Of a DNA stretch of 64,000 nt, positions 8,124 to 50,334 are shown piece by piece. This DNA comes from Escherichia coli (lineage in GTDB: Bacteria > Pseudomonadota > Gammaproteobacteria > Enterobacterales > Enterobacteriaceae): the NCBI RefSeq assembly GCF_030384885.1, contig NZ_CP128614.1, one strand, 5' to 3'. Both the position numbers and the translations under genes were made by a program. Positions within the stretch are counted from its first letter, which is position 1. The number at the start of each line of letters is the position of its first letter. The notes below the pieces were generated by a model that ran no database searches, had not been told where the DNA came from, and was given only the letters and a program-made list of their open reading frames with translations.

Positions 8124-8133
8124 AGGTGGTCAG

Positions 8134-34525: not shown

Positions 34526-35023
34526 AATGCCTCTTGATTATATTGCCCTTCGAATGTTGAACATTATATCTTTAGAGGCAATATTTTGTCACATCCCACG
34601 ATATTTTGGAGCTGAATTATTTGATCAGGCTTACACAATCTTTCTTCTCTATCCCCATTTACCTTTTGCTCTGTTACCTGCGTTGAAATGGTTGATGACC
34701 CACTAATACTGTACTCTGCCTCTTGTATAAATACATTTCAACATAAGATTGGCAAAGTAATCCTCCATAGTAGCTGCTTGAGTGGTTGATTGTCGGAATA
34801 GTGCATAGCCATTTTGGTCAGCAGAAAGCGCTGTTACCGAATGACTTGATCGTAGTACGTGTCTACTCGCCTACCAGAACTGCTGTCCTCTCATCAACTA
34901 TCTGTATAGGACCATTTGAAACATCAGATATATTTTCAGAAATCTCCTGTTAGCGTGATGGTGACTATCTTAGCTGAGAAGGATTACGAATATATTCTTA
35001 CATCATATTCTTTGAGGTGAAAG

Positions 35024-36247
35024 CTATCTATAATTTTCCAGATAGCAAGTGTCTTTGAATGCATTATAATTGCCAATTTCTTGGTTTATTTCAATTTCAT
35101 AATCTAAGCTGACAATAGGTATTTCAACACCATTTAATAAAAGAGACTCTTGATTTTTCTTCCATTTTTTGTTTTCATTCCATGCTAATTCACTTTTGTT
35201 CTCGGGGTCTCCCATTACTTCAATTTTGATACCTTTTAAAGTAAATGTACAATAAAATGATTTGATGTTTTCTGATGTGGTTTTAAACAACTCCCCTTTG
35301 ATACCAGGGTTGATTAACTTGCATATTTCATTAGCCCCTTTCTCCGTTGTTATGATATCAATATCATTTGCATAAATTTGAACGCCTTGTAAGTACCTAT
35401 TAGCCCCACCAGTTATACTCCAATCCTCCTCAATCGGTTGGAGTAATAATGTTAATTCTGTAATTGCGTCGATCAATTGTTTGCTTTGAAAGTTATTTTT
35501 ATTATAAAGCCGTTGAGCCCAGGTTTGTTTTATTTGCATACTGTGTTTTAAATAAATTGCATTATTAATGCTTGGAGCTGTAAATATCTCATGTTCGTAT
35601 TTAGAATATATGTAAGATAGATATTCTGGTGCTTTGCGATTATTAATCTCTATGAATCCATCTATTTTTTTCATCTCATTGTGGGCGTTGAAAAAACCTG
35701 ACACTTCTGAGAATAAATTATAGAAATTATTTATGACTAGCATCCCAAATATGGCGCGGCTATACTGAAAATCTAAATTATCAGTCAGCGTGGTATACAT
35801 AATAATAATTATACTAACTAGTAGTAGTATTGTTAGTAATAAATAGAATAACTTCTGCTGGAAAGCTTTAATATATAAGATAGAGTTCCAGTATGCATTC
35901 TCTTGTATGAGTGTTATTAACCTCTCTGCACGAAAGCCATTTTTATTTTCCGCATTACCATCAATGTAGAGTCGCTCTCGGTAAAAATTTTCCTCGCCTA
36001 TAATACCTCTCAGCATTTCTAATCTTTTTGTTTCTATAGCCTTAGCTGCATACGAAGTTTTAAAATGCATTGCAAACCAAGTGAGGAGTTGTATTATAAA
36101 CGTGAGGGTTGCAATACCGTAGAGCCAATGAGAATTCAAAAAAATCCCGACGATCGATAAGCAGGAAATCATTAATGTTGAATAACTGATAGACTTAGAT
36201 AAAAAGTCAACTCTATCAAAATAAAAACTACTGTTTTTTGATTCCAT
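35024..36247 (-). CDS. membrane-anchored predicted nucleotidyltransferase (4TM N-terminal domain fused to a Pol-beta-like NTase)
   Basis: 407-aa ORF; about four TM helices in the N-terminal 180 aa; C-terminal ITGGANRYLQGVQIYANDIDI fits the minimal nucleotidyltransferase motif hG[GS]-x(9-13)-DhD; AT-rich. Confidence 0.5.
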   Translation of the reverse strand: MESKNSSFYFDRVDFLSKSISYSTLMISCLSIVGIFLNSHWLYGIATLTFIIQLLTWFAMHFKTSYAAKAIETKRLEMLRGIIGEENFYRERLYIDGNAENKNGFRAERLITLIQENAYWNSILYIKAFQQKLFYLLLTILLLVSIIIIMYTTLTDNLDFQYSRAIFGMLVINNFYNLFSEVSGFFNAHNEMKKIDGFIEINNRKAPEYLSYIYSKYEHEIFTAPSINNAIYLKHSMQIKQTWAQRLYNKNNFQSKQLIDAITELTLLLQPIEEDWSITGGANRYLQGVQIYANDIDIITTEKGANEICKLINPGIKGELFKTTSENIKSFYCTFTLKGIKIEVMGDPENKSELAWNENKKWKKNQESLLLNGVEIPIVSLDYEIEINQEIGNYNAFKDTCYLENYR

Positions 36248-36582
36248 TTCTCTATCTTGCTCACTTTTTTTTGTATTTTTACATACGAATTGACAATGTC
36301 AAGATGTAGGGGGAATAATTTGTTCATAACGCATGGGGAGTAAATAGTTCCTATGAACCAATCATGTCATGATTTTCCACATAACGTGGTGTCAACTACA
36401 AGGCATAATAATCTCAGACATTAGTTCGGATGCTTGTCTCGTAAACTCGAGCTTAAACTTTTAATACTTTAATTGTTATGGCTCAGTCGTTACTGAGAAA
36501 GCTAATTTTGTAAAATAACCACCTACCTTACAGGTGCTAACGGATGCGCAAGCCATTGAATTATCTGGAAAATTCAATGAGT

Positions 36583-37053
36583 TCAATGATTATTTTTTTC
36601 TTCTAATTTTTTTATGACATTCCCATGCTTTTTACCACACCATGCTTGTTTCCTACCCATAATAAGCAAAACCATTGGCTCGGTCGCTTTCAGTCCGGTT
36701 CGCCAAGACCTTAGATCAGTACTTGATGGCTGTGGGAAATCTTCGGGATGCGTATGCCATTCGCCCAAATAGACTAGAAAACCGTCTGATTGCTGAAATA
36801 AGTCATCCACTTTTTGCTGGTGATGTTTGCTTTTTCTTTCTATTCGTAATCGCGATCTTATATCACCTGCGCCTGGTTCTGATATGTGGGTGATGACAAT
36901 GTGTTTCCCACGACGTTCTCCAATAAGGATTCCTCCTGCCTCGGTACTGGCATGATGTAATTGACGATATAAATACAACCGCTGCACAACATCACTCATG
37001 ATGACGACATGATTGTAATCATCATCGATAAAAACTAACTCAGTTATGTTCAT
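36583..37053 (-). CDS. cap3: CBASS Cap3 (JAB/JAMM isopeptidase)
   Basis: 156-aa ORF with EWHTHPEDFPQPSSTD (HxHx7Sx2D JAMM motif); overlaps the cap2 stop by 14 bp. Confidence 0.75.
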   Translation of the reverse strand: MNITELVFIDDDYNHVVIMSDVVQRLYLYRQLHHASTEAGGILIGERRGKHIVITHISEPGAGDIRSRLRIERKSKHHQQKVDDLFQQSDGFLVYLGEWHTHPEDFPQPSSTDLRSWRTGLKATEPMVLLIMGRKQAWCGKKHGNVIKKLEEKNNH

Positions 37054-38809
37054 TGCAGATAGGACAGTTAGGCTGATGTGGCAAAAACTGAGGTTTCAGT
37101 GAACGTCCACCTTCTAACATATGCTCGTTGTAAGTCCATTTGAGGTCAGGCTCAAGAGTACTCAAGACTGCCTGTTGAGCCAAAGATGCCGTTATATTAC
37201 TCACCGCCGCATCATAAGATGTGTATGTGCTACCACAACTTTTATTTTTTTCACTTGAGATATCGAGGTTGTAAAATCGGGAATCGATACCATTATGGTA
37301 TTTTGCTGGATTAGTAACCATACATCCATAGCAGCTTCGGCCATCATCGATTAAAACTTTGGATGCTCGTCCATTACCATCATTGAAGGCGTGGATAATA
37401 ATAGGTCTTTGCTCACAGGGAATCTGTCTTACGATAGCCGCAATACGCTTGGAAACAGGAGGTCGACCTGTTGCATCGATAATAATGTCATATTTTTTCA
37501 TAACATCAATACTGATGGGGAATTGCTTATAAAATCCTTCTACTCTGGTCTGTAAATGCACAGAGTCTTGAAGTTTTGTTGCGAGTGAGAGCGCTTTGGA
37601 CCACCCAAAATCATGTGAAGGTAAAATGTGACGACCAAAATTACTAGGACGGTAGATATCATCATCAAATAAATGCAGTAAACCTTTCCCACAACCGGCA
37701 CCGTTTCGGAGTAACAATTCTGCAATATACCCACCAATGGTTCCGCAACCAACTAAAGCTATACGCTTATCGGATAAGCATTCTTTGCTTCTCCTTTGGG
37801 CATTTCGGCTAAGGAGGGTTGCCATATCAGCGCGAACCACACCCAATCGTTTATATGAGGCGCATACATTTTTACCAGCTAACAATGTGGCAAGTTTGGA
37901 CGTTGATTTTTTAGCTGATCTCTTGTGCCTTCTGAAATCAACAGCGTTAGTATTTAACTCAATATAGATGGCAAATATATCTTGATTGAAAATGTCGAAT
38001 AAAAAAATATATCTTTTCTTCCCCTCTGTTGTGATGTAGTGAACCACTCTGTCCCTGGCATTATGGTCCGCATTTTCTAGCCAGTCCAGTAATTCGCGGA
38101 ATGAAGTCGGTGGCCATTTCATCCCAGCAAGACGATTAGGGTTTACAGAAATATAATGAGTGTTGATAGAATAATTTTTCAAAGATTCTTGACGAAGGTA
38201 TCTTTGATTAAGCCATTTTTTTAAAATGGTTTCAGAGTCCTCGGGAGAGGATTCTTGGACAGTTATATATTCTAGCCTGGGAGAACCATCAGGAAATGTT
38301 GACTCTGAAAACAGTGTCTTAAGTCTGATCCCGCGGCTTGCTTTTGATAAAATATATAAACTATCACTAGGTCGCCAGTAAGTTGCAAATTCACCTTCGA
38401 GTTCTCTCTTATCATTCAGGCCATTAGTAGCGGCTAAAACTGAATTAATCAGTGTTCGGTGAATCTGGGCATCGACTTCTTTGTACGTACCCTCAAGGTT
38501 GTTTGGATCCCAATCAGCTTCCAACTGCTCTACATAACAGAGAATTCCTTCTTGGCTTATGTGAGGCATAAGGCGATCTCTGAACTTTTCAGGCAGATCA
38601 ACTATGCAAGCTAATGGCAGTTCCGTAAAAGGATCTGGCCGAATAACTAGTGCTACATTGAAATTTCCGGCTTCGGTTTCATATTCTTTCGTATAATAGC
38701 CTTTCAGGCGTTCCTGACTGTGTAGGAACGCCTTTTCAGGAAGTTTGCGGGCTAGCGTATAGCGATACCCGCACTCTATCATCATTTTATGGAGCCTTCC
38801 TTCCTCCAT
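37040..38809 (-). CDS. cap2: CBASS Cap2 (E1/E2 ubiquitin-like conjugation enzyme fusion)
   Basis: 589-aa ORF; Rossmann/ThiF-like ALVGCGTIGGYIAELLLRNGAG in the C-terminal half; start overlaps the CD-NTase stop. Confidence 0.75.
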   Translation of the reverse strand: MEEGRLHKMMIECGYRYTLARKLPEKAFLHSQERLKGYYTKEYETEAGNFNVALVIRPDPFTELPLACIVDLPEKFRDRLMPHISQEGILCYVEQLEADWDPNNLEGTYKEVDAQIHRTLINSVLAATNGLNDKRELEGEFATYWRPSDSLYILSKASRGIRLKTLFSESTFPDGSPRLEYITVQESSPEDSETILKKWLNQRYLRQESLKNYSINTHYISVNPNRLAGMKWPPTSFRELLDWLENADHNARDRVVHYITTEGKKRYIFLFDIFNQDIFAIYIELNTNAVDFRRHKRSAKKSTSKLATLLAGKNVCASYKRLGVVRADMATLLSRNAQRRSKECLSDKRIALVGCGTIGGYIAELLLRNGAGCGKGLLHLFDDDIYRPSNFGRHILPSHDFGWSKALSLATKLQDSVHLQTRVEGFYKQFPISIDVMKKYDIIIDATGRPPVSKRIAAIVRQIPCEQRPIIIHAFNDGNGRASKVLIDDGRSCYGCMVTNPAKYHNGIDSRFYNLDISSEKNKSCGSTYTSYDAAVSNITASLAQQAVLSTLEPDLKWTYNEHMLEGGRSLKPQFLPHQPNCPICNEHN

Positions 38810-40110
38810 CAGCCGCTTACCATCGTGGTGTTAATTTTTACAGGCGCCTGCTCCTTAGACGGGGAGATTTGAAATGCAGGAGCCGCAGCAATTGAAGTTA
38901 TTAACGAGGCATTAGTTACTCGTTTTCCAAACGCATTGTTTATCTTACGTAATGCTTCTTCCCTGCTACTTGAACTCTCTGCATCAAGCAAAATCCCCTC
39001 TAAATTTCTCATGGTTTCAACGATGGTTCTCTGATGTACGTTATGATCGCATTCGGCAGGGAAAAGTAACTTTTCATCAGTATCGTCGGGACTTTCCAGA
39101 CCGCGACAGAATTCATTAGGTAGTAATCTTGCAACTAGTTTCATCGTCCCTGTGAGGTCTGAACCATTATGTGCTTCTCTGTCGAGGATGTTTACAACTG
39201 CAGCCATCAGGCTAATAGATGAAGGACCTCCCACTTCCCATTGGGCATCTCTCCAGGCCTTCATAAAGCGGCAAATTGAACGGAGATGACCGCCAATACG
39301 CTTGCAACTATCATTAAACCAATCTTCAACAATTTTGGGGTCGCTGATCGACCACCTTCTTGCACCCTGACGCAGCGCTAAATTAACTTTGTCAGGTTCT
39401 ACTAGATATGCCTCGCGCATATCCATGTTTGCTGATAAAGACTCGAACATGGAGTCGGCACTTTTTATGATGTGTGCTGAATCGGCTGCAGTTTGTTTGG
39501 TCTGAAATTGCTCTTTGGGGATCGCATACATCGGTACGTCGATGTGTGTTTTCTCGTGAGGAATTTTGATGCGTCCGCAGGTGTTTTTTTCTTCATATAC
39601 CCATCCATCGTTTTCAGCCTCTAACGATTTCAGTGACGTATCAACGAGCAGAAGAAGTAAGGTGTGCCCAATACTGGGTTCGGATTCAAAGACCGTCATT
39701 GGCATGTAGGTGCCGTCATCGATATCCATTTCCTGACCCGGGTGAAAAGGTCTGTTTAACGTATCGTATTGAAAACTCCCTTGGGTCCAGAAGCGAGGTT
39801 GAAATTTGATGAAGTCATCACGAGCTACATCTTCCATTTCAAAAATGAGTCGAGCGAGAGTCTCACGGTCTGAGGGAGAGAGGTAGCGAACATTAGTTTG
39901 CTCCAGTTTAAATCTAACGCTTTCAAGCGTCAGAGTTTGCTTTCTGGCGTCTGTAGCAATTTGACGAGCTTCTTTAAACACATCCCTCGTTCTTTCACGG
40001 ACTTTCTGGCGAAGTGCTTTCAGTTTGTCGGATTCAGTCTTACCCAATTTTAGTTTACTGATTAAGCCATCCACACTATGGCTGTAGTAATTGTTAAAAT
40101 CCCAACGCAT
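38809..40110 (-). CDS. dncV: CD-NTase, DncV-like cyclic dinucleotide synthase
   Basis: 433-aa ORF; NTase motif QGSFQYDTLNRPFHPGQEMDIDDG; long stretches match Vibrio cholerae DncV as recalled (MRxxWNFxxYY N-terminus, RFWTQGSFQYDTLNRPF, C-terminal NxAFGxRVTN...STMVSG). Confidence 0.85.
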   Translation of the reverse strand: MRWDFNNYYSHSVDGLISKLKLGKTESDKLKALRQKVRERTRDVFKEARQIATDARKQTLTLESVRFKLEQTNVRYLSPSDRETLARLIFEMEDVARDDFIKFQPRFWTQGSFQYDTLNRPFHPGQEMDIDDGTYMPMTVFESEPSIGHTLLLLLVDTSLKSLEAENDGWVYEEKNTCGRIKIPHEKTHIDVPMYAIPKEQFQTKQTAADSAHIIKSADSMFESLSANMDMREAYLVEPDKVNLALRQGARRWSISDPKIVEDWFNDSCKRIGGHLRSICRFMKAWRDAQWEVGGPSSISLMAAVVNILDREAHNGSDLTGTMKLVARLLPNEFCRGLESPDDTDEKLLFPAECDHNVHQRTIVETMRNLEGILLDAESSSSREEALRKINNAFGKRVTNASLITSIAAAPAFQISPSKEQAPVKINTTMVSG

Positions 40111-41180
40111 CAGTGGATCTCCTGCGCATTCATGCGCTTAAAGGGTTTTGCGGGAGTAGTGAAAAAATTCTTAAGCTTCTGATCTTGAGCGAACTCAACA
40201 TTGGCGAGCTGCCTTCCCCTTGCGCTTAAATTTTCAAGGGAACTCTTCGTGGCATTATCCAGGGTGATATCACTGGCTGCTTCATTGGGGATAATTTCAT
40301 CCAGGTAGATGTAGTTATCCACCGCGTCATGGAGCATAAGCTCACGCTGTAGCATATTTTTATGAAGATGCTGGTTAGCTGTCATGGTTGTAAGCACCAG
40401 CCGTTTTCCCATACCCCAGAGACGACAGTAGCCATTCCACCATGTTTTGCTCAACAACTTTGGACTAAGTGAATACTCTTCACCAACAGTACCGATATTA
40501 AGTATATGTATGTCTTTATGGGTGACGCTGAAGTCAGAATTCATATCCCTGAAAACTTCCAGAAGTCCTATGTAGCTGGGGTTGTTTGCGACCAGACCAC
40601 CATCGGCAAAATATGCGCGGAGATCCTCACAATAGTGTGGGGAAAAATACGTTGGCGCGGCTGAGGTTGCCAGTGCGGCATCTATCAATTTAAGAGGCCC
40701 ATCACGAGTAAAATCTGGGTTGTGTGGTGTCTTGAAAAACTGCGGTTTTCCTGTTGAAAGGTTTACTGCCGGGATCATTACTCGCCGGGTTAGGTCATTG
40801 AATGTGGTTTCAGCCCCAATCATTTCTTGAATTGTTTCGCGAAGAGGATGGCTGCGGTAGATAGGAGCACAAAGTGATCTAAGCAAGTTGGTCAGGGACC
40901 ATCTTTTGGGAAAAATGTCATTCGCCCTATCGAAGAACACTCGTTCCAGCTCACGGGCACTTTTTCCTGTAGCAAGGCCGAGAGCTAATATGCCGCCTAT
41001 TGATGTCCCTGTAATGAGGTCAAAATAATCGCCAATTTTAATATCCTGATTAGGGTATTTGCTGGCAAGTATCCTCTCAATCTCAGAAAGGACACTGATC
41101 GTAAACATTCCCCTGGCCCCCCCGCCATTAAGACTTAGTATCCGCACGCCATAGTGATTTCCTGCACTTATGTCAGACAT
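40110..41180 (-). CDS. capV: CBASS effector CapV (patatin-like phospholipase)
   Basis: 356-aa ORF with patatin motifs GGGARG (oxyanion), GTSIGG (GxSxG nucleophile) and DGG; stop overlaps the dncV start. Confidence 0.85.
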   Translation of the reverse strand: MSDISAGNHYGVRILSLNGGGARGMFTISVLSEIERILASKYPNQDIKIGDYFDLITGTSIGGILALGLATGKSARELERVFFDRANDIFPKRWSLTNLLRSLCAPIYRSHPLRETIQEMIGAETTFNDLTRRVMIPAVNLSTGKPQFFKTPHNPDFTRDGPLKLIDAALATSAAPTYFSPHYCEDLRAYFADGGLVANNPSYIGLLEVFRDMNSDFSVTHKDIHILNIGTVGEEYSLSPKLLSKTWWNGYCRLWGMGKRLVLTTMTANQHLHKNMLQRELMLHDAVDNYIYLDEIIPNEAASDITLDNATKSSLENLSARGRQLANVEFAQDQKLKNFFTTPAKPFKRMNAQEIH

Positions 41181-41630
41181 AGCCAGCTCCCCTCGGAAAG
41201 ATAGCTATAAGATATGTCCGCTTTTGTAGTTTTCAATGTACAAATAACCAGCAAATTTGAAATATGGTTAAAATAACTGCGTTATGGAAATTAATTGAAT
41301 ATTAATTCTTATTTTTGTTTTCCTGATGGAATTAAAATCTAAGTATGTCATTTTCTGGCTAATTTTACGAAAGGAAAATCCATGGCACATGCAGCCATCA
41401 CCTCACTCAGTCTTGGCTACATGAAACAATCTTGGTGTTATCACCGGTGAGCAAGGAATTGAGAGCTAAGCCTTGAAACAGAGGCATATGTGGGAAAGTC
41501 AGTGGAAAAAATGATGGATCCTAATCTCCCTGTTCAATCGTAACGAATTATCGCCCTTTACTCTTTTCCAGATCCGACTTGGATGTTGTTCATCCAGGCC
41601 GCTAAACGTTGCTGTCGCCGGGCCATCTCG

Positions 41631-41927
41631 TCACCATTTCTCCTGTCTGGCGGGCAAATTTTCCAAAGATTTATTCTCTCCCGACGGCATCATTTCTGAT
41701 GAATTTGCCATCGATGAAAGGCTGATTTCTACTCCCAGCACGGTAAACACTTTGAACAGGCGTTCAATACTCGCACTGGCTGGATTGGCCTCCAGACGAG
41801 CATAGGTTTGCTGGGTCACACCTAACCTTTCAGAGACGTCTTTTTGCGTCAGCCCATTCGCTTTACGAAAGCCAAGCAGCATTGGACGCAATTGGGTAAG
41901 TATTTTTATCGGATAAACATTTTTCAT
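41631..41927 (-). CDS. HipB-like XRE-family HTH regulator
   Basis: 98-aa ORF; LGFRKANGLTQKDVSERLGVTQQTYARLEANPASASIERLFKVFTVLGVEISL aligns with E. coli HipB as recalled; no hipA-like gene follows; lies 450 bp upstream of capV on the same strand. Confidence 0.6.
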   Translation of the reverse strand: MKNVYPIKILTQLRPMLLGFRKANGLTQKDVSERLGVTQQTYARLEANPASASIERLFKVFTVLGVEISLSSMANSSEMMPSGENKSLENLPARQEKW

Positions 41928-42201
41928 CGTGGGTAGGCCTCTATATGGTTTGATACACCCTGTAAGCTGTGTTTACATAATTACACCTTAAAAGCTGTTA
42001 AATCAAGATTACAGCTTAAAAGCTGTTCAAAAGTCATAACAGCCTGTTGCTATTAATATGGACAGGAAGAATACGTAGCACTGGCAGACGCAAACCAGAC
42101 TTGGATTGATAACGGCCACTGCTGTTTATTGTTGAATCCGTCTAACCTAATTCCAGTTCAACTATTGAAATAGAACCGGCATAGCGGATACATTACGCAC
42201 G

Positions 42202-42600
42202 TTGTTACCTTGTATCATCAGGATGCCGTTGACTGTGTTTATCAGCCGTGAAGTCATTTCCAGAATCGTGCTTATCATCATGGCTGTTGCCGTGCTGAGC
42301 AGTTCGCTTATGGTAAAACCACAGGCTGTCTACAATCTCCAGGATACAACATCCATCAGTGACCATCAGCACGACAGCGATGAACCGCTGAATGAGCACG
42401 ATCCGTTACAGTTCCACTCGCACGGTAATGTGCATCACCTCAATGCCGATCATTCCCACGATCTGAACAAACTCTTCACGCTGACTGCTTTGCAGGCCTG
42501 GAACGCAGGCATGCGGGCGACGTTCGCGCTAAGTTCAGAACAAATCCTGCGGGTCCCCCAGGCGACCCCCGAACGCCCTCCGAGATCCCTGATTGCGTAA
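42202..42600 (+). CDS. His-rich secreted or membrane protein (possible metal binding)
   Basis: 132-aa ORF with a hydrophobic N-terminus and His/Asp-rich segment HQHDSDEPLNEHDPLQFHSHGNVHHLNADHSHD. Confidence 0.35.
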   Translation: MLPCIIRMPLTVFISREVISRIVLIIMAVAVLSSSLMVKPQAVYNLQDTTSISDHQHDSDEPLNEHDPLQFHSHGNVHHLNADHSHDLNKLFTLTALQAWNAGMRATFALSSEQILRVPQATPERPPRSLIA

Positions 42601-42643
42601 TAACTTCCGTTAATTCGTTATTATTCAATTTGTAAGGGTTTTT

Positions 42644-43043
42644 ATGAATACCAGCCTCGATATACAGGGCCGGTTGAACGGTGGCCTGCTTTCAGCTCAG
42701 GCGCGTTCGGCTTGTCTGTTTTTCCTGTTGTTACTGCTTTTCTACAGCCAGGGCGCGTATGCGCACGACGTGGCGGAGGGCGACAAAGGGTACATCCAGG
42801 AAATCACCGGGATTATCGTCAATGCACAAAGGAGCGTGGGTAACGCTGGAAGGTAATGTTATCAGCCAGCAGGATGAGTGGTACACCTTCCGTGATCCAA
42901 CCGGCACCATCAAAGTGCGCATTCCTCAGAAGGTCTGGAACGGGCAGCACTTCGATGCTCAGGATTTGGTGCGGGTGAGTGGGCAGGTAATTCATGAGAA
43001 TGGTGCTACGAGCCTTGATGTAGGTGTGATTAGCAAGCCCTGA
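42644..43043 (+). pseudogene. YgiW/YdeI (BOF, OB-fold) family periplasmic protein, frameshifted
   Basis: signal peptide in frame 1 (42644..42856) and the OB-fold body (AWVTLEGNVISQQDEWYTFRDPTGTIKVRIP...) in another frame (to 43043); frames switch near 42820-42850. Confidence 0.5.
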
Positions 43044-43235
43044 ATTCCATCAAAACAAGCGGTACTTATAATAACCTTCATCCCGAGCGTGATAGCGCAT
43101 CACAACTTCGAGACTTTCTTCAAGGAATATATACGTCTGGGCATAGGACTCTCCATTATGAGAGTCCAACTAATGAGGGCAATGTATCGATCTGAGTATG
43201 AGATTGCTTTGTGGACTAAGGCAGAAATGAGCCTT

Positions 43236-43547
43236 CTAAGGCTGATCCTTCTTCAAGATTTTGATGAGTTCGATTTGCTGTTGTTCAGACATGTTAGCGA
43301 TCAGGCGAGCTAACTCTGCAGTCGTTTCGTTCTCGCAAAAGAAGTAGTTGATCGGTACCCCAAGTTCATCAGCCATACGCTTAAGAGTATCAATGTCAGG
43401 AGTATGTCTCCCCTTCTCGTAGTGGTTCATGCGGCCACTCGCTGAACTTGGTTCCATGCCAATTCGGATACCCAATTCTTTCTGAGTGATCCCGGCATAC
43501 GTTCTGGCAGCCTTGAGCCTGTCAGGTATCGGATTTGGGTGAGCCAC
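43236..43547 (-). CDS. XRE-family HTH transcriptional regulator
   Basis: 103-aa ORF with HTH LKAARTYAGITQKELGIRIGMEPSSASGRMNHYEKG; divergent from the helicase operon. Confidence 0.6.
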   Translation of the reverse strand: MAHPNPIPDRLKAARTYAGITQKELGIRIGMEPSSASGRMNHYEKGRHTPDIDTLKRMADELGVPINYFFCENETTAELARLIANMSEQQQIELIKILKKDQP

Positions 43548-43572
43548 GAAGTCATCATCATTGCCTTAGAGT

Positions 43573-43623
43573 ACTTAGATTGTCTAAGTTTCGTTGGTTT
43601 CTGTATACTTAGCAATTCTAAGT
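43573..43623. promoter_or_regulatory. two 17-bp palindromic operators in the divergent promoter region
   Basis: ACTTAGAttgTCTAAGT (43573-43589) and ACTTAGcaattCTAAGT (43607-43623), same half-sites, 17 bp apart, between the XRE gene and the helicase-operon start. Confidence 0.6.
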
Positions 43624-43646
43624 TTACTGATTTGGAAGTTTTAACA

Positions 43647-44216
43647 ATGAAGTCTGCAGTGAAGTTGCACCCTTATATTTATAATTTGTTGATAGAAAGA
43701 GATTTTGATGAGTTCGGTGCTATCCATCTCAGGGACGCTTTGCTGAAGATTACAGATTCATATGCTGATGTAACTGAAGCCAGAAAATTCATCCGCCGAC
43801 AACTTATCCGGCTGGAGGCATTGGGCTTCATTTTTAAAATTGAAAATAGCAGTGGGCGTCCGAAGATCCTGTACAAGAAAACGGAAAGCTTCTATTCAAC
43901 GACTTTCATACCAAGAAAATTGCCAAGTAACTCGCGCCTGGCTGCTGTGCCCGAAAATGTGAAACTACACGTTTTGGATGTCGATCTGTTCTTAATGGAC
44001 CTGACAAAAGAAAAAACTGTCCATGAGGCCAAACTTGCCGTCATTCTGAGTGAAATTGAAGAGTACCAGTCTCTTATGGAGCGTTTTCCCAGTAGACGGA
44101 GCTGCTTTATTGAACTCCATCAGCACGCAAAAAATCAGTCCGCCGCTTTGCTTGGCAGGGTTACTGCTTTATCGAAAGTGCTAGGTCAGCTTAGCGATGG
44201 GGATTGCGCATGCTGA
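43647..44216 (+). CDS. hypothetical protein, first gene of the helicase operon
   Basis: listed ORF 43539..44216; likely start is ATG at 43647 (MKSAVKL..., RBS-like GGAAG upstream) since the upstream part overlaps the divergent XRE gene; no catalytic motif recognised; 13-bp overlap with the helicase gene. Confidence 0.5.
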   Translation: MKSAVKLHPYIYNLLIERDFDEFGAIHLRDALLKITDSYADVTEARKFIRRQLIRLEALGFIFKIENSSGRPKILYKKTESFYSTTFIPRKLPSNSRLAAVPENVKLHVLDVDLFLMDLTKEKTVHEAKLAVILSEIEEYQSLMERFPSRRSCFIELHQHAKNQSAALLGRVTALSKVLGQLSDGDCAC

Positions 44217-45598
44217 GGGAGTGGCAGAAAGAATGCTCTGAAGCAGCGCTAGAAAAATATCAATCTGGATCGCCGCACTTTCTATGTCTTGCCAGTCCTG
44301 GTGCAGGAAAAACCGTGATGGCTGCTGAAGTTGCCAGGAAAATGCTGGAGCTGAAACTAGTAGATCTCATCCTATGCTTTGCACCTTCATCTGTGGTGGT
44401 TGCATCCATTGAAAGTACTTTCTCCCATATTCTTCAAAGGAACTTTAATGGTGGTCTTGGTGCAGTAGGTGCTGCGTATACTTATCATAGCTTGATGTAT
44501 TTCGATAAAAGCTTCTGGAAGTCTTTGCAGATGCATCGGGTATTAGTTATTTTCGACGAAATCCATCATTGTTCTGGCGATTCGCTGGATAATGCTAATG
44601 TGTGGGGCGGGGAAATCCTTTCTCAAGTTCAGCAATGTGCCAGTTACTCTTTGGCACTAACAGGGACTCCATGGCGAACTGATAGTACTCCTATAGTGCT
44701 CTCAAATTACACTGATCCGGATGGGGAGATCTGTTGTGACTATGTATATGGACTACATGAGGCTATTGTCGATGGTGTTTGTCGTAAACCTAAAATCGCC
44801 TTGATAAACAGCAATAATTTAGTATATTCATCAAAGGATAATGTTCAGTTTTTTGGTTCCATCACAGATTTCCTGAGTGAAACCGTTGCTTCGTATCAAT
44901 CAATAATTTGGCATCCAGAAGCAATGAAGTATGTACTAGAAGCTGGATGTAAAAAACTTAACGAAATACGCAAAGTTAATTCTGATGCGGGTGGTTTAGT
45001 TGTTGCTTCTTCAGTCGAGCATGCATATAAGCTACTGAATATTTTGGAAAAAGAGTTTGACCAAACAGCGATAATTGTGACGTACCACGATCGAGATGCT
45101 TTGGCTAAGATTGGATATTATCGGCAATCAACTACAGAATGGATTGTTAGCGTTGGTATGATTAGTGAGGGCACAGATATCCCCAGGCTACAGGTCTGCT
45201 GCCATTTGAGTTCTGTCAAAACAGAACTTTACTTCAGACAAGTATTGGGCAGGATATTACGGGTGAATCAGAGTGAAAATCAGGAAGCCTGGTTATTTAC
45301 AATGGCTACAAATGAACTGACATTATTCTCAAACAGATTGGCCGAAGATTTACCTGAAGATTATAAAGTTATGCAACAACAATCTGATGATTGGTCATTC
45401 CCTACAATTGATTCTCAGTCTATGCCTCCAGAGTTTGTGCGGAAAAATGGTATATCTAAAATAAAAGAGATTGATTTAGAAATGGATATTGGTGAAATAA
45501 CTACATCGTCACCTACGATTTCAAGTCAAACAAAACAACTAAAAATGGGCTCAATGCATCAACAAGTGATAGATGCATTTTTATTTTCAATTATTTAA
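44204..45598 (+). CDS. SF2 DExH-box helicase
   Basis: 464-aa ORF with Walker A ASPGAGKT, motif II IFDEIHH, LTGTPWR, and motif VI FRQVLGRILR. Confidence 0.65.
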   Translation: MRMLREWQKECSEAALEKYQSGSPHFLCLASPGAGKTVMAAEVARKMLELKLVDLILCFAPSSVVVASIESTFSHILQRNFNGGLGAVGAAYTYHSLMYFDKSFWKSLQMHRVLVIFDEIHHCSGDSLDNANVWGGEILSQVQQCASYSLALTGTPWRTDSTPIVLSNYTDPDGEICCDYVYGLHEAIVDGVCRKPKIALINSNNLVYSSKDNVQFFGSITDFLSETVASYQSIIWHPEAMKYVLEAGCKKLNEIRKVNSDAGGLVVASSVEHAYKLLNILEKEFDQTAIIVTYHDRDALAKIGYYRQSTTEWIVSVGMISEGTDIPRLQVCCHLSSVKTELYFRQVLGRILRVNQSENQEAWLFTMATNELTLFSNRLAEDLPEDYKVMQQQSDDWSFPTIDSQSMPPEFVRKNGISKIKEIDLEMDIGEITTSSPTISSQTKQLKMGSMHQQVIDAFLFSII

Positions 45599-45654
45599 TT
45601 TTTTATCGTATGCCGTAAACGGTTTGAAGAGTGAATTAACGGCATTGATTCAAG

Positions 45655-45975
45655 TTAAAACTGGCTAGTTACGGCCAGTTTCCCTAGGGAACTATAGTTT
45701 TTATCTATACAACGTGAAGCTAAAGAAGAGTGAATGATTGCCTTTTTTGTAACTAATTTTATTTTTAACTCCTCAAGCTTGTCTTTTAATGATTTATTTT
45801 CCTCTTCAAGAAATGATATTTTTACTAGTGATGCCCTTAATAAGTCATTGAGCTGGTGATGTTCTGAAGCCATTTGACGGAGTCTTTTTCGAGGGGGCTG
45901 AAAGCGTTCTGCAGGCACTGTTAGTGGTATAAAATATGCCCACGACTGTATTCCTGTTGTGTGGTAATTCCTCAA
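45655..45975 (-). CDS. small coiled-coil protein (partial paralog of 45993..46433)
   Basis: 106-aa ORF; MASEHHQLNDLLRASL...EEENKSLKDKLEELK parallels MAAEHHQLSHALRVARSRIEALEQEIKALK in the neighbour. Confidence 0.4.
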   Translation of the reverse strand: MRNYHTTGIQSWAYFIPLTVPAERFQPPRKRLRQMASEHHQLNDLLRASLVKISFLEEENKSLKDKLEELKIKLVTKKAIIHSSLASRCIDKNYSSLGKLAVTSQF

Positions 45976-45992: not shown

Positions 45993-46433
45993 TTATTTTA
46001 TTCTTACTATCTGGCCTTGTTTTAAAGCTTTTATCTCTTGTTCCAGCGCTTCAATACGTGAACGTGCAACCCTCAGCGCATGGGAGAGCTGATGATGTTC
46101 AGCCGCCATCACTTCCAGACGACGTTTCATATCAGATGCTTTTACACGGTACTGAATTTTCACTTTACGCTCTTGGTTAAATTTATGTCGCAGGGCTTCC
46201 TGTGACTGATGAGTTAGCCTGCCCTGAGGGGATATTTTTAACCGCAGAATTTCCTCCTGGACGCGTGACTTAAATGCCCCGTAGTAGTAACAGGTTCCGT
46301 TTCCCAGCCCGGCCTCCTCTTCAACAGCACGCACCGACAACTTTCGGTTGTCAGGGATACGTTTTGTCTGACCATCAAGGATCCGTTGTAGTGCAGCTTC
46401 AAGTTTAAGGAGTGTATTTTCTGATTTGCTCAT
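45993..46433 (-). CDS. small coiled-coil protein downstream of the recombinase genes
   Basis: 146-aa ORF overlapping the stop of the 720-aa gene by 4 bp. Confidence 0.45.
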   Translation of the reverse strand: MSKSENTLLKLEAALQRILDGQTKRIPDNRKLSVRAVEEEAGLGNGTCYYYGAFKSRVQEEILRLKISPQGRLTHQSQEALRHKFNQERKVKIQYRVKASDMKRRLEVMAAEHHQLSHALRVARSRIEALEQEIKALKQGQIVRIK

Positions 46434-48592
46434 ACGCCTGTCACCTTAATGGGATGTTCATATGTGTCATAGCCAATCCCATGATCCTGCATAACCCGTT
46501 CCGCAGCCCGGATTTGAGTGATACAGTGGGCATACTCACTGATGCTTAGATCCGTCTGTTGCTGAAGATACATTATCAAAGCATTATGACGTTGCTGCCA
46601 CCACATGGCCTTATCCGTATCGATAATGCTTCCACCGCTACGACAATCCACGCAGAATGCAGGGTTGACCACACCATCCATATCGCAGTCATAGCCGTTT
46701 TTGCAGTAACTATGTAGCGTTCCATGCAAAGTAAGTCGTTTTTCCCTGACCAGTCGATAGAGATTATCCCAGCTACTGTAGATCACAGGCTTATCATTAC
46801 GCATAGCTAGAATGGCTTTGCCAAAACTTCCGCTGAGTTGACTATCCCCGTTAAACCAGCTGTCAAAAAGACTAGTTGTCTGTTCGAGCCTTGCTTCATT
46901 CAGTAATTTAATCAGTTCGCTGTCCACCTGTATTGATTGTAGCCGTGCTTCAACAGCACCGTTCCCATACCATTCACTCATTCGCAGGCTGAGGTGTTTA
47001 AACTGTTGTTTGATTGCGATGGGGTGTCCGAGCTGGTTACGTACGGCAAAGCAGGCGAAAGTTCTTCGAAACTGATGGGTTAAAAGGGGCCAGGCCTCTC
47101 CTGTTCTGATCTTATCTTCTATAGCCCCCCTGTCCCGAGGGTTAAGCTGACGGCACTCTGCGAGTGCCTGTTTATCAACAATAGCACCCACATGTCTGGA
47201 AAAATTTTTTAAACGGTCGTTCCACTTGCTGCGTGAAATGAGGACAGGCAGGTTTTTTCTTTGGTACTGGCTGAGCCACAGATTTCCTGCTGTCTCAGTA
47301 AGCGTATCAGACTGCCCTGGGTCGTTGCTGTGAACCGCTATTTTTAACAGCTGTTCACGAGCACACGCGCTGAGAGCCGTCGCAAGCGATATGGCTTTTT
47401 CAACAATAGGGCTTGCCAGCCATTCTTCATTTTTTTTCCCGGCAGCCAGTTTGTGGGTTGCTGCGCTTACCGAGTGAAAATCCTGTCCATTAATGGTGTA
47501 GGTGTGAAAACTGTCCACATGCAATTCAAATATTTCGCTGACTCTCATTCCTGTGAAAGCACCACAACAAATAAAACAGGCTGCCTGAAGTTGAGCACGA
47601 AAACTGACGAGCCAGTTACCGTCTGCTGCGCTACTGGGCAGGAGTCCTGTTCCGGTGAGATGGTTTTTGATTAGGGTATTTTGCGACCGGGGTGTCGCTT
47701 TATTAATTTCTTCTACATATTCTTTTGAACATAATTTCCCCTGTCCGTTAGTCAGCCATGTCCACTTACCTGTAAGTATTTTATAGTCAACAACGGCACG
47801 CCCGATATCATAATTAGACTGCAGTTCACGTTCTAGCTGGGCTAGTGTTTCTCTGTGGGGCCATGCAAGCTCGACAAGTCTAACGGCTTCTCCATAGAGT
47901 ATATTTGCTATTGCCTGGGGGATGGCCAGGGTTTGCCTGTGTTCTGCTTTATTTTTAGCTGACAGTTTTTTGGCTGTCTGTTTGTAGTTCAGCTGTGGCA
48001 GGTCAAGCTGGAAAGGAAGCCATGAATTTAGTCTTTCGACTGACTGTAGTGCAGAGAAAATCAATTCAACAGTTCGCTTACTAAAGGCTTCACGTTCGAT
48101 ATCGTTTTGTAGCTTTTGCCATATCTCGGGTTTATTGAAGTCAGACAGGCACGTGCTGCCACTATGCAAAAGCGTTAATAAACTCTTTTTTAACCCTAAA
48201 TTGAATCGGGAGGTCAGTGTTGACAGCTTGCAGTCTTTTCCGGAGTGATAATTTTGCTCAAATATCCATCCATATACGATAAGCTTCGCCTGAAGGAGAA
48301 GCGCCGGAGCGGACTCCAAATAGGTAAAGTTAAATTCACGCTGGTTTTTATCCGTTCCCTTATCTGAAGCAAAGGGGCTACAGTCCCAGCAATTTTGACC
48401 AAAATATGCTCGCGTGATGTTATGTTTATCGATACATATTGGGAGCTTATCGAGCGCAGACCAGTTTTTGTTTTTTATCAGAAGTAAAATATCTTCTGTG
48501 GCTCCATACGTCAGAGCGTCTTTATGAAATGAGTTCAACAGAATAGCCATAGTGATCCTTATGTCATATCTGTGCTTTGCACATCTGACCAC
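46430..48592 (-). CDS. tyrosine-recombinase-like protein (third of three tandem genes)
   Basis: 720-aa ORF with AFTGMRVSEIFEL (box I Arg) and LTHQFRRTFACFAV (HxxR) in the C-terminal half. Confidence 0.55.
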   Translation of the reverse strand: MVRCAKHRYDIRITMAILLNSFHKDALTYGATEDILLLIKNKNWSALDKLPICIDKHNITRAYFGQNCWDCSPFASDKGTDKNQREFNFTYLESAPALLLQAKLIVYGWIFEQNYHSGKDCKLSTLTSRFNLGLKKSLLTLLHSGSTCLSDFNKPEIWQKLQNDIEREAFSKRTVELIFSALQSVERLNSWLPFQLDLPQLNYKQTAKKLSAKNKAEHRQTLAIPQAIANILYGEAVRLVELAWPHRETLAQLERELQSNYDIGRAVVDYKILTGKWTWLTNGQGKLCSKEYVEEINKATPRSQNTLIKNHLTGTGLLPSSAADGNWLVSFRAQLQAACFICCGAFTGMRVSEIFELHVDSFHTYTINGQDFHSVSAATHKLAAGKKNEEWLASPIVEKAISLATALSACAREQLLKIAVHSNDPGQSDTLTETAGNLWLSQYQRKNLPVLISRSKWNDRLKNFSRHVGAIVDKQALAECRQLNPRDRGAIEDKIRTGEAWPLLTHQFRRTFACFAVRNQLGHPIAIKQQFKHLSLRMSEWYGNGAVEARLQSIQVDSELIKLLNEARLEQTTSLFDSWFNGDSQLSGSFGKAILAMRNDKPVIYSSWDNLYRLVREKRLTLHGTLHSYCKNGYDCDMDGVVNPAFCVDCRSGGSIIDTDKAMWWQQRHNALIMYLQQQTDLSISEYAHCITQIRAAERVMQDHGIGYDTYEHPIKVTGV

Positions 48593-50334
48593 AGGGGATG
48601 TCGTCCTTCATCAGCAAGTTTTCGACGGGCATGTTGTAGTGTTTTTTGATTCAGTAATTTCAGCCTGCTATCAATGTTTACGATGGTCTGGCCAAAGTTT
48701 TTTGTGTAATGGGCTTTATCCAGGTGAAGGTATTGTGATTCTTCCAGATATTCACGGAAGCTTAACACGCACCATAAATCCGTTACTGATTCGACCAGAA
48801 CCTGATGTTTGCAACTCCAGCAGTTTAACAGGTCAGCACAAGCCAGCGTTTCTTCCGGGGGGATCAGCCCGTTTCTCCTGGCCCGGGAAGTGAACATCGT
48901 GGCCATTGTACCAGCCGTGTCGTTACAATAACTTCCATGGGAGTTTCGTACGGGAGGCGATGCTCTTCTGACATAGGCCTCATATGCCAGCACGCTGACC
49001 TTTTGTGCTTCACGTACTTTCTGTTTTGCAGATTCAATACTCTGCCTGTCCCGGACAACCTGTTCCAGTGTCTGGCTGGTATCCCGGTTCATTTGATTGT
49101 TCTCGTAGGGGTTACCATCAGAATATGCCTGACGGATAGTTTCGGGGGTATTATCAAGCAGTAGTGCAGCCTCGACCGGGCCCTTCAGCGCCAGTGTCAG
49201 ATGACTGCCGGTGGCCCGAAAGCGCCTGGTGACCGGCCACAGCCTTTGCCCTAAGTCGTCTGTCATGGGGAAGTGTACAGAGAGCCAGCTACTTTTGAAG
49301 TCATTCAGCAGGCAGGAACTCATCATCTGGACGCTTTTTTTCCGATGACTATAGGTCGGTAAGAGCAGGCCATCCGGGCCGGGGTCTAACAACGTTGACG
49401 CAGTAATGAGCTGGTCAAAAAACTGTGTTGCGTATTTGGGTATTTCCAGCCGATTGTTGTCACCTATCTCAACAGAGATTGTTTTAAATGCCCGGCGCTT
49501 AAAGGCTGGCATCTGATGCCAGTTATCTGATGGTGTATGGCTGCTGAGTGTCGGTCTTTTTAATGTGTACAGGATGGAGCTGTTGCTCCATGTGTAATAA
49601 CTGAGCAGGTATGCGGCTGCATAAAATAATTTTGATACACCGCTGCGTACAGGATACGTTTTCCCTTTCCAGCAAAAAGTCATTGTTGCTGTGATACCGC
49701 TGGCTTTGATATGTGAATCTGGGTCAAGAATAAACTGGGAGTAAAGTTGCCTGAACAGTCCTCTTAGTAAAGGGAGTAATTTTTTCAGGTCACCATCGCT
49801 ATATCCTCGTGTGGGCTCTGATTGTGTATTTCCCGGGTTTTTAAACCCTGACGTAAACTTTGTACTCCGCCCCATCCAGTTGTATAAGGTTGTCAGGTCT
49901 GCCTTTATCCTGGAGGCTGTGCTGTCTTTGATTTCGCCCCTCCTTTGACGAAGTAAATGACATTTCAACTCTCTGATGAACGTGCTCTCAGACAGGGGGA
50001 TAAGTGCTGGCACCTGACTGTCACAGAAAGTAAAATGCTTTCTTGCAGCATTAAAAATATTATACTTTGTTGCAGGTGTGACATCTTCATGGCCAGTAAT
50101 TGCAATAAACAGTGACTGTACAATGTCATCCCGTGCCAGTAATTGCTCATCCCCCTGTTTTATCAGGTTGGTTTTGGGTATGCCCTTATAGCGAAAGCGG
50201 TTAAAATCTAACAGGGTATGAGCATTGGCGCCATTGCGTATTGGTATACAGAGGTGTTCAACCCAGGGCGTTGTGAGTTTTAATTTGCTGCTCATACTTT
50301 CACTCCAGTAGTGCTCTGTGCATAATTTCATCAA
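48559..50334 (-). CDS. recombinase-module protein (second of three)
   Basis: 591-aa ORF overlapping both neighbours; catalytic motifs not clearly readable. Confidence 0.45.
   Translation of the reverse strand: MMKLCTEHYWSESMSSKLKLTTPWVEHLCIPIRNGANAHTLLDFNRFRYKGIPKTNLIKQGDEQLLARDDIVQSLFIAITGHEDVTPATKYNIFNAARKHFTFCDSQVPALIPLSESTFIRELKCHLLRQRRGEIKDSTASRIKADLTTLYNWMGRSTKFTSGFKNPGNTQSEPTRGYSDGDLKKLLPLLRGLFRQLYSQFILDPDSHIKASGITATMTFCWKGKTYPVRSGVSKLFYAAAYLLSYYTWSNSSILYTLKRPTLSSHTPSDNWHQMPAFKRRAFKTISVEIGDNNRLEIPKYATQFFDQLITASTLLDPGPDGLLLPTYSHRKKSVQMMSSCLLNDFKSSWLSVHFPMTDDLGQRLWPVTRRFRATGSHLTLALKGPVEAALLLDNTPETIRQAYSDGNPYENNQMNRDTSQTLEQVVRDRQSIESAKQKVREAQKVSVLAYEAYVRRASPPVRNSHGSYCNDTAGTMATMFTSRARRNGLIPPEETLACADLLNCWSCKHQVLVESVTDLWCVLSFREYLEESQYLHLDKAHYTKNFGQTIVNIDSRLKLLNQKTLQHARRKLADEGRHPLWSDVQSTDMT

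What the first reader, a model, noticed from the sequence alone, without database searches (positions are those of the whole stretch)
41631..41927. HipB-like HTH without HipA, directly upstream of CBASS
The protein resembles HipB along its length, yet the gene where hipA would be expected is capV, 450 bp downstream. Either CBASS displaced hipA or a HipB-family repressor has been recruited as the CBASS regulator.
Basis: inference. Interest (0 to 1): 0.42.

Follow-up and report, generated by a model that had tools for sequence, protein, structure and literature searches.

The report
Orphan hipB beside a CBASS operon
The small regulator gene upstream of this CBASS anti-phage operon is the surviving antitoxin half of a broken hipBA toxin-antitoxin pair, brought in with a nickel-resistance cassette; nothing in the sequence shows it controls CBASS, so it is an ordinary gene remnant.

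Summary
ORF 41631-41927 (-) encodes a 98-aa XRE protein whose best family and structure matches are HipB. No hipA follows it, and capV starts 450 bp downstream.

The first 90 nt after hipB (41626-41537) are the first 30 codons of hipA, now frame-shifted. The gap holds no HipB-type operator.

Related loci show how this arose:
- On Klebsiella plasmids the same CBASS island has a different HTH gene (C-protein/CapH-like, 103 aa) and a VspR homologue directly upstream of capV.
- A metagenomic contig (L022) carries a whole nickel-resistance (ncr)-hipB cassette between that HTH gene and capV. Its junctions are identical to the window's, and it shares a 2-nt deletion in the hipA stump.
- The window is that state minus 7.0 kb. 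It keeps hipA', hipB, orf121, a hupE'/'ncrY fusion and an IS3 stump.

So the hipBA cassette intruded into the CBASS island, not the reverse.

hipB keeps its ORF and three conserved operators, and shows relaxed purifying selection (dN/dS 0.31). It is most likely a still-active, self-repressing orphan antitoxin. Its only plausible route to CBASS is read-through transcription, which is untested. Orphan antitoxins are a known and common outcome.

The parts
41631..41927 (-). hipB: orphan HipB-family antitoxin/autorepressor, 98 aa, intact ORF
   Evidence: Searches give the family and structure matches. Orthologues at 76-90% identity are paired with a 441-aa HipA. dN/dS against the other orphan lineage is 0.31, and the HTH core is invariant.
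41537..41626 (-). hipA stump: the first ~30 codons of hipA, starting 4 nt after the hipB stop. It carries a 2-nt deletion shared with L022 and a window-specific 1-nt insertion, and reads MARRQQRLAAWMNNIQVGSGKE* before the frame breaks.
   Evidence: About 91% DNA identity to intact hipBA loci continues through the hipB stop and ends at 41537. tblastn matches HipA residues 1-18 at 78% identity, E 1e-4. The indels are visible in the alignment.
41534..41536 (.). Left junction: 3 nt (TCA) between the end of hipBA-cassette homology (41537) and the end of CBASS-island homology (41533). No IS end is present.
   Evidence: The junction is identical in L022.
41181..41533 (-). Native capV upstream region inherited from the CBASS island. 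It contains a promoter-like TTGAAA-16-TATCTT at 41236..41209 within a ~75-nt block conserved with the cassette-free island, and a weak terminator-like hairpin at 41398..41382. It holds no HipB operator.
41955..42026 (.). Three HipB operator-like palindromes ACA(G/C)C-N6-GCTGT at 41955-41970, 41983-41998 and 42011-42026, spaced 28 nt apart.
   Evidence: The sites are identical in the intact hipBA loci on Klebsiella plasmids; in the Pantoea chromosomal locus one site is identical and the two others differ at one or two bases.
42039..42053 (.). Fourth, distal operator (ACAGCC-N4-GGCTGT in intact loci), damaged in the window by a lost base and a G-to-A change.
42235..42600 (+). orf121: His-rich small protein, the conserved neighbour of hipB in the ncr cassette.
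42644..42821 (+). hupE' : the first ~59 codons of a HupE/UreJ gene, cut by a 7.0-kb deletion.
   Evidence: the window equals L022 minus L022 2115-9116.
42822..43043 (+). 'ncrY (YgiW/BOF OB-fold) C-terminal fragment, fused to hupE'.
43071..43187 (-). Stump of an IS3-family element (start of orfA plus the terminal repeat). It forms the right edge of the inserted cassette.
43236..43547 (-). HTH103: the island's own XRE regulator (C-protein/CapH-like). On Klebsiella plasmids it lies 430 nt upstream of capV on the same strand.
   Evidence: PADLOC Control_protein 3.8e-25 and capH 4.3e-9. Position on plasmids. The ORF is intact in L022.
43539..44216 (+). VspR homologue (VspR_N + VspR_C), divergent from HTH103. 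The real start may be near 43647, giving a 189-aa form.
   Evidence: Precomputed Pfam hits. VspR is the negative regulator of the V. cholerae CBASS (PMC10653837).
44204..45598 (+). ResIII/DEAD helicase-like gene co-oriented with vspR; part of the island.
36583..41180 (-). Type II CBASS operon: capV (40110-41180), cGAS/DncV-like synthase (38809-40110), cap2 (37040-38809) and cap3 (36583-37053).

Best explanation
The gene is an orphan hipB, the antitoxin and autorepressor of a hipBA toxin-antitoxin module, followed by a dead 30-codon stump of hipA.

It arrived as part of a plasmid-type nickel-resistance cassette with the order IS3 - ncrY - ncrCBA - ... - hupE - orf121 - hipB - hipA. That cassette was inserted into a VSP-1-like CBASS island, between the island's own upstream regulators (a C-protein/CapH-like HTH and a VspR homologue) and capV. 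IS3-family activity at one end probably did this. The other end of the insertion lies inside hipA and destroyed the toxin gene. A later 7.0-kb deletion removed the nickel genes, leaving hipA'-hipB-orf121-hupE'/'ncrY-IS3'.

Shown here: the anatomy, the junctions and the order of events.

Inferred: HipB is still made, still binds the three intact palindromic operators in front of its own gene, and still represses itself. It has no operator at the capV promoter, so CBASS keeps its inherited proximal promoter. Any HipB influence on CBASS would come only from read-through of hipB transcripts across the 450-bp gap. Possible reasons for retention are slow decay after toxin loss or protection against related plasmid-borne HipA toxins.
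For: - HipB identity. Orthologues are paired with a full-length HipA 4 nt downstream.
- hipA stump: 90.6-91% DNA identity to intact loci runs from 42821 to 41537 and covers the first 91 nt of hipA. The frameshifts are seen.
- Cassette-free state: K. oxytoca and K. michiganensis plasmids carry helicase-vspR-HTH103 followed by 430 nt and then capV. They are homologous to window 33053-41533 (94%) and 43230-45810 (88%), so window 41534-43229 is extra.
- Intermediate state: L022 carries the full ncr cluster plus hipB plus the hipA stump between HTH103 and capV. Its junctions are the same, and it shares the 2-nt deletion in the stump. The window equals L022 minus 7.0 kb.
- Source of the cassette: intact ncr-hipBA units on Klebsiella plasmids and ncr units on Enterobacter plasmids.
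- IS3 stump at the right edge.
- hipB still constrained: between the window and L022, Nd = 10 and Sd = 9, dN/dS 0.31, binomial p = 0.016 against neutrality. There are no indels in 297 nt, against 2 in the 90-nt hipA stump, and the HTH core is invariant.
- Operators: three palindromes conserved across genera and none in the gap.
- capV-proximal promoter-like block conserved with the cassette-free island.
- Orphan antitoxins, including partners of HipA toxins, are abundant in Klebsiella (PMC7192599).
Against: - No expression data exist, so HipB synthesis, operator binding and the absence of any effect on capV are all inferred.
- The consensus scan found no sigma-70-like promoter for hipB on the minus strand.
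- The distal operator is damaged in the window.
- dN/dS of 0.31 is 2-3 times that of intact pairs (0.11-0.15) and rests on only 19 substitutions.
- No convincing terminator lies between hipB and capV, so read-through cannot be excluded.
- The mechanism of the left junction (hipA nt 91 joined to island DNA with 3 filler bases) is unknown.
- The cassette-free arrangement is inferred to be ancestral because the cassette's end genes are truncated. This is not based on a rooted phylogeny.
Confidence: 0.8

Rival explanations
1. HipB has been co-opted as a CBASS regulator. After the insertion cut capV off from its native upstream HTH gene, transcription from the HipB-autorepressed promoter reads through the dead hipA stump into capV-dncV-cap2-cap3. 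CBASS dosage would then be set partly by HipB.
For: - hipB is on the same strand and 450 nt upstream of capV. This is almost exactly where the native HTH103 sits in the cassette-free island (430 nt).
- Only a weak 5-bp terminator-like hairpin lies in the gap. It is not conserved in the cassette-free island.
- The hipB ORF has been kept under some purifying selection in two lineages since the junction formed.
- The literature notes that orphan antitoxins can acquire regulatory roles (PMC7192599).
Against: - No HipB operator lies in the capV upstream region.
- capV keeps its conserved proximal promoter-like element.
- The adjacency stems from one event.
- HipB's own operator array is decaying rather than being refined.
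- HTH103 and VspR remain intact.
- A 450-nt untranslated stretch would be exposed to Rho-dependent termination (general knowledge, not tested here).
Confidence: 0.12
2. The orphan HipB is kept as an anti-addiction device. It neutralises HipA, and represses the hipBA promoter, of related hipBA modules on incoming conjugative plasmids. This would protect the host or element from post-segregational killing.
For: - HipB proteins 88-90% identical, with identical operators, sit with active-looking HipA genes on large conjugative Klebsiella and Enterobacter plasmids that share hosts with this element.
- The C-terminal tail, including the terminal Trp, is retained (role of W88 in PMC3376134).
- dN/dS is below 1.
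- The anti-addiction concept is cited for orphan antitoxins in PMC7192599.
Against: - There is no direct evidence.
- Ten amino-acid changes have accumulated outside the HTH core since the split, and constraint is relaxed.
- The pattern is equally well explained by the simple rule that a toxin can be lost first while an antitoxin cannot.
Confidence: 0.2
3. hipB is a functionless relic whose ORF is intact only because too little time has passed.
For: - hipA is dead, and distal operators are decaying independently in both orphan lineages.
- dN/dS is raised 2-3 fold over intact pairs.
- No consensus promoter was detected.
- A 98-codon ORF can survive 19 substitutions by chance.
Against: - The ratio of non-synonymous to synonymous changes is significantly below neutral expectation (p = 0.016).
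- hipB has no indels, whereas the adjacent 90-nt stump has two.
- The HTH core and the three proximal operators are unchanged.
Confidence: 0.25

Closest known systems
E. coli K-12 HipB / hipBA type II toxin-antitoxin module (structures 2WIU, 3DNV, 3HZI)
   Same: - Both are Cro/C1-type HTH proteins of about 90-100 aa, alignable over residues 10-79.
- Both have an unstructured tail ending in Trp.
- In both, the gene lies immediately upstream of hipA (in orthologues of the window gene).
- Both have an array of four palindromic operators in front of the operon (E. coli features from PMC3376134).
   Different: - Identity is only about 30%, and the score is below the NCBIfam equivalog cut-off (41 against 79 bits).
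- The operator sequence is ACAGC-N6-GCTGT, not TATCC-N8-GGATA.
- Here the hipA partner is reduced to a 30-codon frame-shifted stump.
Orphan antitoxins from degraded toxin-antitoxin loci (surveyed in Klebsiella, PMC7192599)
   Same: An antitoxin gene is retained with its non-toxin-side context (orf121, hupE) while the toxin side is replaced by unrelated DNA. Partners of HipA-domain toxins are among the most frequent orphans in that survey.
   Different: Here the exact history can be reconstructed. The toxin was truncated at the junction created when the cassette entered a CBASS island, and an intermediate state (L022) survives.
Native CBASS transcriptional regulators: VspR of V. cholerae VSP-1, and CapH-type or C-protein-type XRE repressors
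   Same: hipB is a small XRE HTH gene upstream of, and co-oriented with, a capV-dncV-cap2-cap3 operon.
   Different: - Those roles are filled in this island by other genes, HTH103 (43236-43547) and the VspR homologue (43539-44216).
- HipB matches capH only weakly (2.5e-4, against 4.3e-9 for HTH103).
- HipB has no operator at capV.
- HipB is linked to CBASS by a single insertion event.

Membership tests
HipB antitoxin (hipBA type II TA) | Cro/C1 (XRE) HTH domain in a protein of about 90-100 aa | tested here: met
   Pfam HTH_3 at 3.6e-14, residues 21-69.
HipB antitoxin (hipBA type II TA) | Sequence match to curated HipB models or solved HipB structures | tested here: inconclusive
   HipB is the best hit in both NCBIfam (NF007271, 41 bits) and the PDB (2WIU, 1.8e-6). 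The NCBIfam score is below the 79-bit equivalog cut-off, so the protein is a family relative and not the E. coli equivalog.
HipB antitoxin (hipBA type II TA) | Encoded directly upstream of, and co-transcribed with, a HipA kinase gene (Couple_hipA + HipA_C) | tested here: met
   Met for orthologues at 76-88% identity: a 441-aa HipA follows 4 nt downstream in L009-L012, L014 and L019-L021. In the window only the first 30 codons of hipA remain, at the same 4-nt spacing.
HipB antitoxin (hipBA type II TA) | Multiple palindromic operators upstream of hipB for autorepression | tested here: met
   Three palindromes at 28-nt spacing plus a damaged fourth, conserved across genera. Binding itself was not tested.
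HipB antitoxin (hipBA type II TA) | Conserved C-terminal tryptophan on a disordered tail | tested here: met
   The protein ends ...ARQEKW, and all homologues examined end in EKW. The feature is described in PMC3376134.
Functional hipBA toxin-antitoxin module | Intact HipA toxin partner | tested here: not met
   Only a 90-nt frame-shifted stump is present, and there is no other HipA-like sequence in the 64 kb.
Dedicated CBASS regulator (VspR / CapH / CapW type) | Recurrent, evolutionarily conserved linkage to CBASS operons | tested here: not met
   The two hipB-capV lineages found (the window type and L022) share one junction and one 2-nt deletion, so they descend from a single event. Other homologues sampled sit with hipA or, in one case, in an unrelated context without hipA.
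Dedicated CBASS regulator (VspR / CapH / CapW type) | Cognate binding site in the CBASS promoter region | tested here: not met
   No ACAGC-N6-GCTGT-like site with 3 or fewer mismatches lies in 41181-41630.
Dedicated CBASS regulator (VspR / CapH / CapW type) | Effect on CBASS transcription | not testable with these tools
   This needs reporter assays or RNA measurements.

The most novel reading that the evidence does not exclude
The insertion rewired CBASS control. By separating capV from its native C-protein/CapH-like HTH and VspR genes, and by placing a HipB-autorepressed, Lon-sensitive promoter in the same position and orientation, the island now couples CBASS operon dosage to HipB stability through read-through transcription. 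Stress that degrades HipB would then raise CBASS levels.
Probability: 0.1. Interest if true: 0.5.

Novelty: new member of a known kind. Interest (0 to 1): 0.22.

Why it matters
The main value is as a correction. A small HTH gene next to a defence operon looks like its regulator. Here comparative context shows it is the leftover antitoxin of a broken hipBA module, and that the island's real candidate regulators (a C-protein/CapH-like HTH and a VspR homologue) lie 1.6-2.3 kb further upstream.

The locus is also a clean, datable example of toxin-first decay of a TA module, because the cassette-free, intermediate and final states all still exist.

In this E. hormaechei / IncHI2 lineage, a metal-resistance cassette now separates CBASS from its native regulators. 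That could matter for CBASS expression, but the effect is untested.

Tried and rejected
- Megablast of the hipB region and of the CBASS operon against complete E. coli genomes found no match.
- Pfam scans of conceptual translations of the gap found nothing, because the stump is too short for Couple_hipA. The hipA stump was established by DNA and tblastn comparison with intact loci instead.
- I considered that the hok/gef-like stretch at 21310-21589 was the old downstream neighbour of hipA, which would make the ~20 kb in between an insertion into hipA. I rejected this. The same hok and IS3 arrangement belongs to the IncHI2-type backbone shared with pMY490-mcr-9, identity is only 75-80%, and the island's two halves flank the hipB fragment.
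- I considered that the ncr cassette and the CBASS island share homologous large tyrosine recombinases, which could explain the mosaic. BLASTP gave E = 0.06, which is not significant.
- The IS3 next to hipA in L014 and the IS3 next to ncrY in L023 are not the same element (no blastn hit). A simple composite transposon with identical IS copies is therefore not supported.
- Rfam on 41000-43700 found no RNA family.
- The 40-aa ORF at 41268-41390 in the gap is not conserved in frame in the cassette-free island (indels), so I do not treat it as a gene.

Full report
**Observation**

The ORF at 41631-41927 (minus strand, 98 aa) is real.
- It carries a Cro/C1-type HTH domain (Pfam HTH_3, 3.6e-14).
- Its best curated-family hit is antitoxin HipB (NF007271), aligned over residues 10-78 of an 88-position model. 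The score is 41 bits, below the 79-bit equivalog cut-off.
- Its best solved-structure relatives are all E. coli HipB (2WIU/3DNV/3HZI, E 1.8e-6, about 30% identity over 70 residues).
- Downstream on the same strand lie capV (40110-41180), a cGAS/DncV-like synthase, cap2 and cap3. This is a type II CBASS operon.
- The hipB-capV gap is 450 bp.

**Is it really hipB?**

The exact protein is widespread: it is on record in 521 contigs, mostly Enterobacter hormaechei, and all eight places examined have the same context.

Homologues 76-88% identical are followed 4 nt later by a 441-aa HipA with Couple_hipA and HipA_C domains. This holds in metagenomic contigs (L009-L012), on a K. pneumoniae conjugative plasmid where NCBI calls it a HipA family toxin (L014), and in Pantoea chromosomes (L019-L021).

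Upstream of hipB are three palindromes, ACA(G/C)C-N6-GCTGT, at 41955, 41983 and 42011. They are spaced exactly 28 nt apart. A fourth, distal palindrome is also present in intact loci. The three sites are identical in the intact Klebsiella-plasmid loci and nearly so in Pantoea, while the surrounding DNA varies. This mirrors the four-operator layout of E. coli hipBA, though the sequence differs (TATCC-N8-GGATA in E. coli; PMC3376134). The protein also ends in Trp, as HipB proteins do.

**hipA remnants in the gap**

Four bases after the hipB stop, the minus strand reads ATG GCC CGG ..., giving MARRQQRLAAWMNNIQVGSGKE*.

DNA identity of about 91% to intact hipBA loci runs without a break from 42821 down to 41537. 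That stretch crosses the hipB stop and covers the first 91 nt of hipA. tblastn with an intact HipA matches residues 1-18 at 78% identity (E 1e-4) and residues 20-30 in a second frame.

The stump carries a 2-nt deletion and, in the window only, a 1-nt insertion. No other HipA-like sequence is present in the 64 kb.

**What the fragment is and how it got there**

Three states of the same island exist.

1. Cassette-free state. K. oxytoca and K. michiganensis IncHI1B plasmids carry helicase - vspR-like - HTH103, then 430 nt, then capV-dncV-cap2-cap3 (L013). They are homologous to window 33053-41533 (94%) and 43230-45810 (88%). Window 41534-43229 (1696 nt) therefore replaces a few tens of bases there.

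2. Intermediate state. A metagenomic contig (L022) has helicase - vspR - HTH103 - ncrY(ygiW) - ncrC - ncrB - ncrA - four genes - hupE - orf121 - hipB - hipA stump - capV.... It aligns with the window straight through both junctions and shares the 2-nt deletion in the stump.

3. Window state. The window equals L022 minus L022 positions 2115-9116. This 7.0-kb deletion fuses hupE codon ~59 (42821) to the last ~74 codons of ncrY (42822-43043).

Intact ncr-hipBA units occur on Klebsiella plasmids (L014, L023). The ncr cluster without hipBA occurs on Enterobacter plasmids (L015).

Between 'ncrY and HTH103, positions 43071-43187 are the terminal stump (start of orfA plus the inverted repeat) of an IS3-family element. 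A similar element sits next to ncrY in L023. The cassette's right edge is thus an IS end, about 35-40 nt from the HTH103 stop codon. The left edge is hipA nt 91 joined to island DNA through three filler bases (TCA), with no IS remnant.

Because both end genes of the fragment are truncated copies of genes that are whole elsewhere, and because the island's two halves are contiguous without it, the cassette intruded into the island. CBASS did not land in a resident hipBA locus.

**State of hipB after losing hipA**

The window and L022 diverged after the junction formed.
- In hipB they differ by 9 synonymous and 10 non-synonymous changes, giving dN/dS of 0.31. Pairs of intact loci give 0.11-0.15.
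- The shortfall of non-synonymous changes against neutral expectation is modestly significant (binomial p = 0.016).
- All ten replacements lie outside residues 30-62, the HTH core.
- hipB has no indels, whereas the 90-nt stump has two.
- The distal operators are decaying independently. O4 (42039-42053) is damaged in the window. L022 has an 11-nt deletion between O4 and O3 and a mutated O3 half-site.

Together this points to relaxed but not absent constraint.

**Relation to CBASS**

- The 353 nt upstream of capV (41181-41533) are island DNA.
- The last ~75 nt, including a promoter-like TTGAAA-16-TATCTT (41236..41209), are strongly conserved with the cassette-free island.
- No HipB-type operator occurs in the gap, even allowing 3 mismatches in 10 specified positions.
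- The only terminator-like feature is a weak 5-bp hairpin (41398..41382) that is not conserved in the cassette-free island.
- The island's own candidate regulators remain intact. HTH103 (43236-43547) matches PADLOC Control_protein at 3.8e-25 and capH at 4.3e-9. The VspR homologue (43539-44216) has VspR_N and VspR_C domains. VspR is the negative regulator of the V. cholerae CBASS (PMC10653837).

Direct control of capV by HipB therefore has no support in the sequence. Read-through from the hipB promoter remains possible and is untested.

**Context**

The window is an IncHI2-type backbone. It is 96-98% identical to pMY490-mcr-9 over 18760-61977 and carries a TraI_2 relaxase and a coupling protein. 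Identical copies of the island also sit on 4.6-5 Mb E. hormaechei contigs.

**Comparison with what is known, and verdict**

Orphan antitoxins left by degraded TA loci are common. Partners of HipA-domain toxins are among the most frequent orphans in Klebsiella (PMC7192599). Suggested roles in that paper include anti-addiction and acquired regulatory functions.

This locus is a well-documented new instance of that known kind. The 'recruited regulator' alternative is not supported by sequence evidence.

Interest is low to moderate. The most novel reading not excluded is a HipB-dependent read-through rewiring of CBASS expression. I rate it at about 10%.

Noticed in passing
window 43236-44216: The island's native regulatory pair is a C-protein/CapH-like XRE gene (HTH103, minus strand) divergent from a VspR homologue (plus strand; the 225-aa ORF overlaps HTH103 at the 5' end, so a 189-aa form starting near 43647 is more likely). 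On Klebsiella plasmids HTH103 lies 430 nt upstream of capV on the same strand. It may be the real proximal CBASS regulator.
   Followed up: partly
window 42644-43043: An in-line fusion of the first ~59 codons of hupE with the last ~74 codons of ncrY (YgiW/BOF). It is the scar of a 7.0-kb deletion that removed the ncrABC nickel-resistance genes still present in L022.
   Followed up: yes
window 43071-43187: Stump of an IS3-family element (start of orfA plus the terminal repeat), about 76% identical to the IS3 next to ncrY on K. pneumoniae plasmids.
   Followed up: partly
window 35024-36247: A 407-aa protein just downstream of cap3, conserved in the Klebsiella plasmid island. Its N-terminal half is membrane-like (weak PADLOC '4TM effector' hit, 7.9e-5) and its C-terminal half resembles an Aminoglyc_resit-type nucleotidyltransferase. 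It may be an additional CBASS-linked gene.
   Followed up: no
window 31221-34525: Two further defence-like genes lie next to CBASS: a strong match to the PADLOC candidate HEC-08 (33419-34525, 5.7e-70) and a DndC/PAPS-reductase-like 651-aa protein (31221-33176).
   Followed up: no
window 46430-51679: Three consecutive large genes on the minus strand (720, 591 and 459 aa). The 459-aa product has a phage-integrase domain, so this looks like a tyrosine-recombinase trio at the edge of the island.
   Followed up: no
window 1-62000 and L016: The window is 96-98% identical over 18760-61977 to the IncHI2 plasmid pMY490-mcr-9. It carries a MOBH-type relaxase (TraI_2) and a coupling protein at 1129-6365. 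Yet identical copies of the island lie on 4.6-5 Mb E. hormaechei contigs, and strain MY490 has a copy on both its chromosome record and its plasmid.
   Followed up: partly
window 21310-21589: A hok/gef-like type I toxin region lies between an IS4/IS5-type transposase gene (20142-21260) and an IS3-family element (21590-22959). It is 75-80% similar to the hok region downstream of hipA in intact loci, but it belongs to the IncHI2-type backbone.
   Followed up: yes
L018 3001-3400: An Enterobacter sp. homologue (HipB 81% identical) also lacks hipA. A weak 24-residue HipA N-terminal match (E 0.04) follows it directly. This may be a second, independent orphan hipB.
   Followed up: partly
window 42039-42053; L022 ~9880-9920: The distal HipB operators are damaged independently in the two orphan lineages, but are intact in every locus that still has hipA. 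This fits a loss of need for higher-order HipA-HipB-operator complexes.
   Followed up: partly
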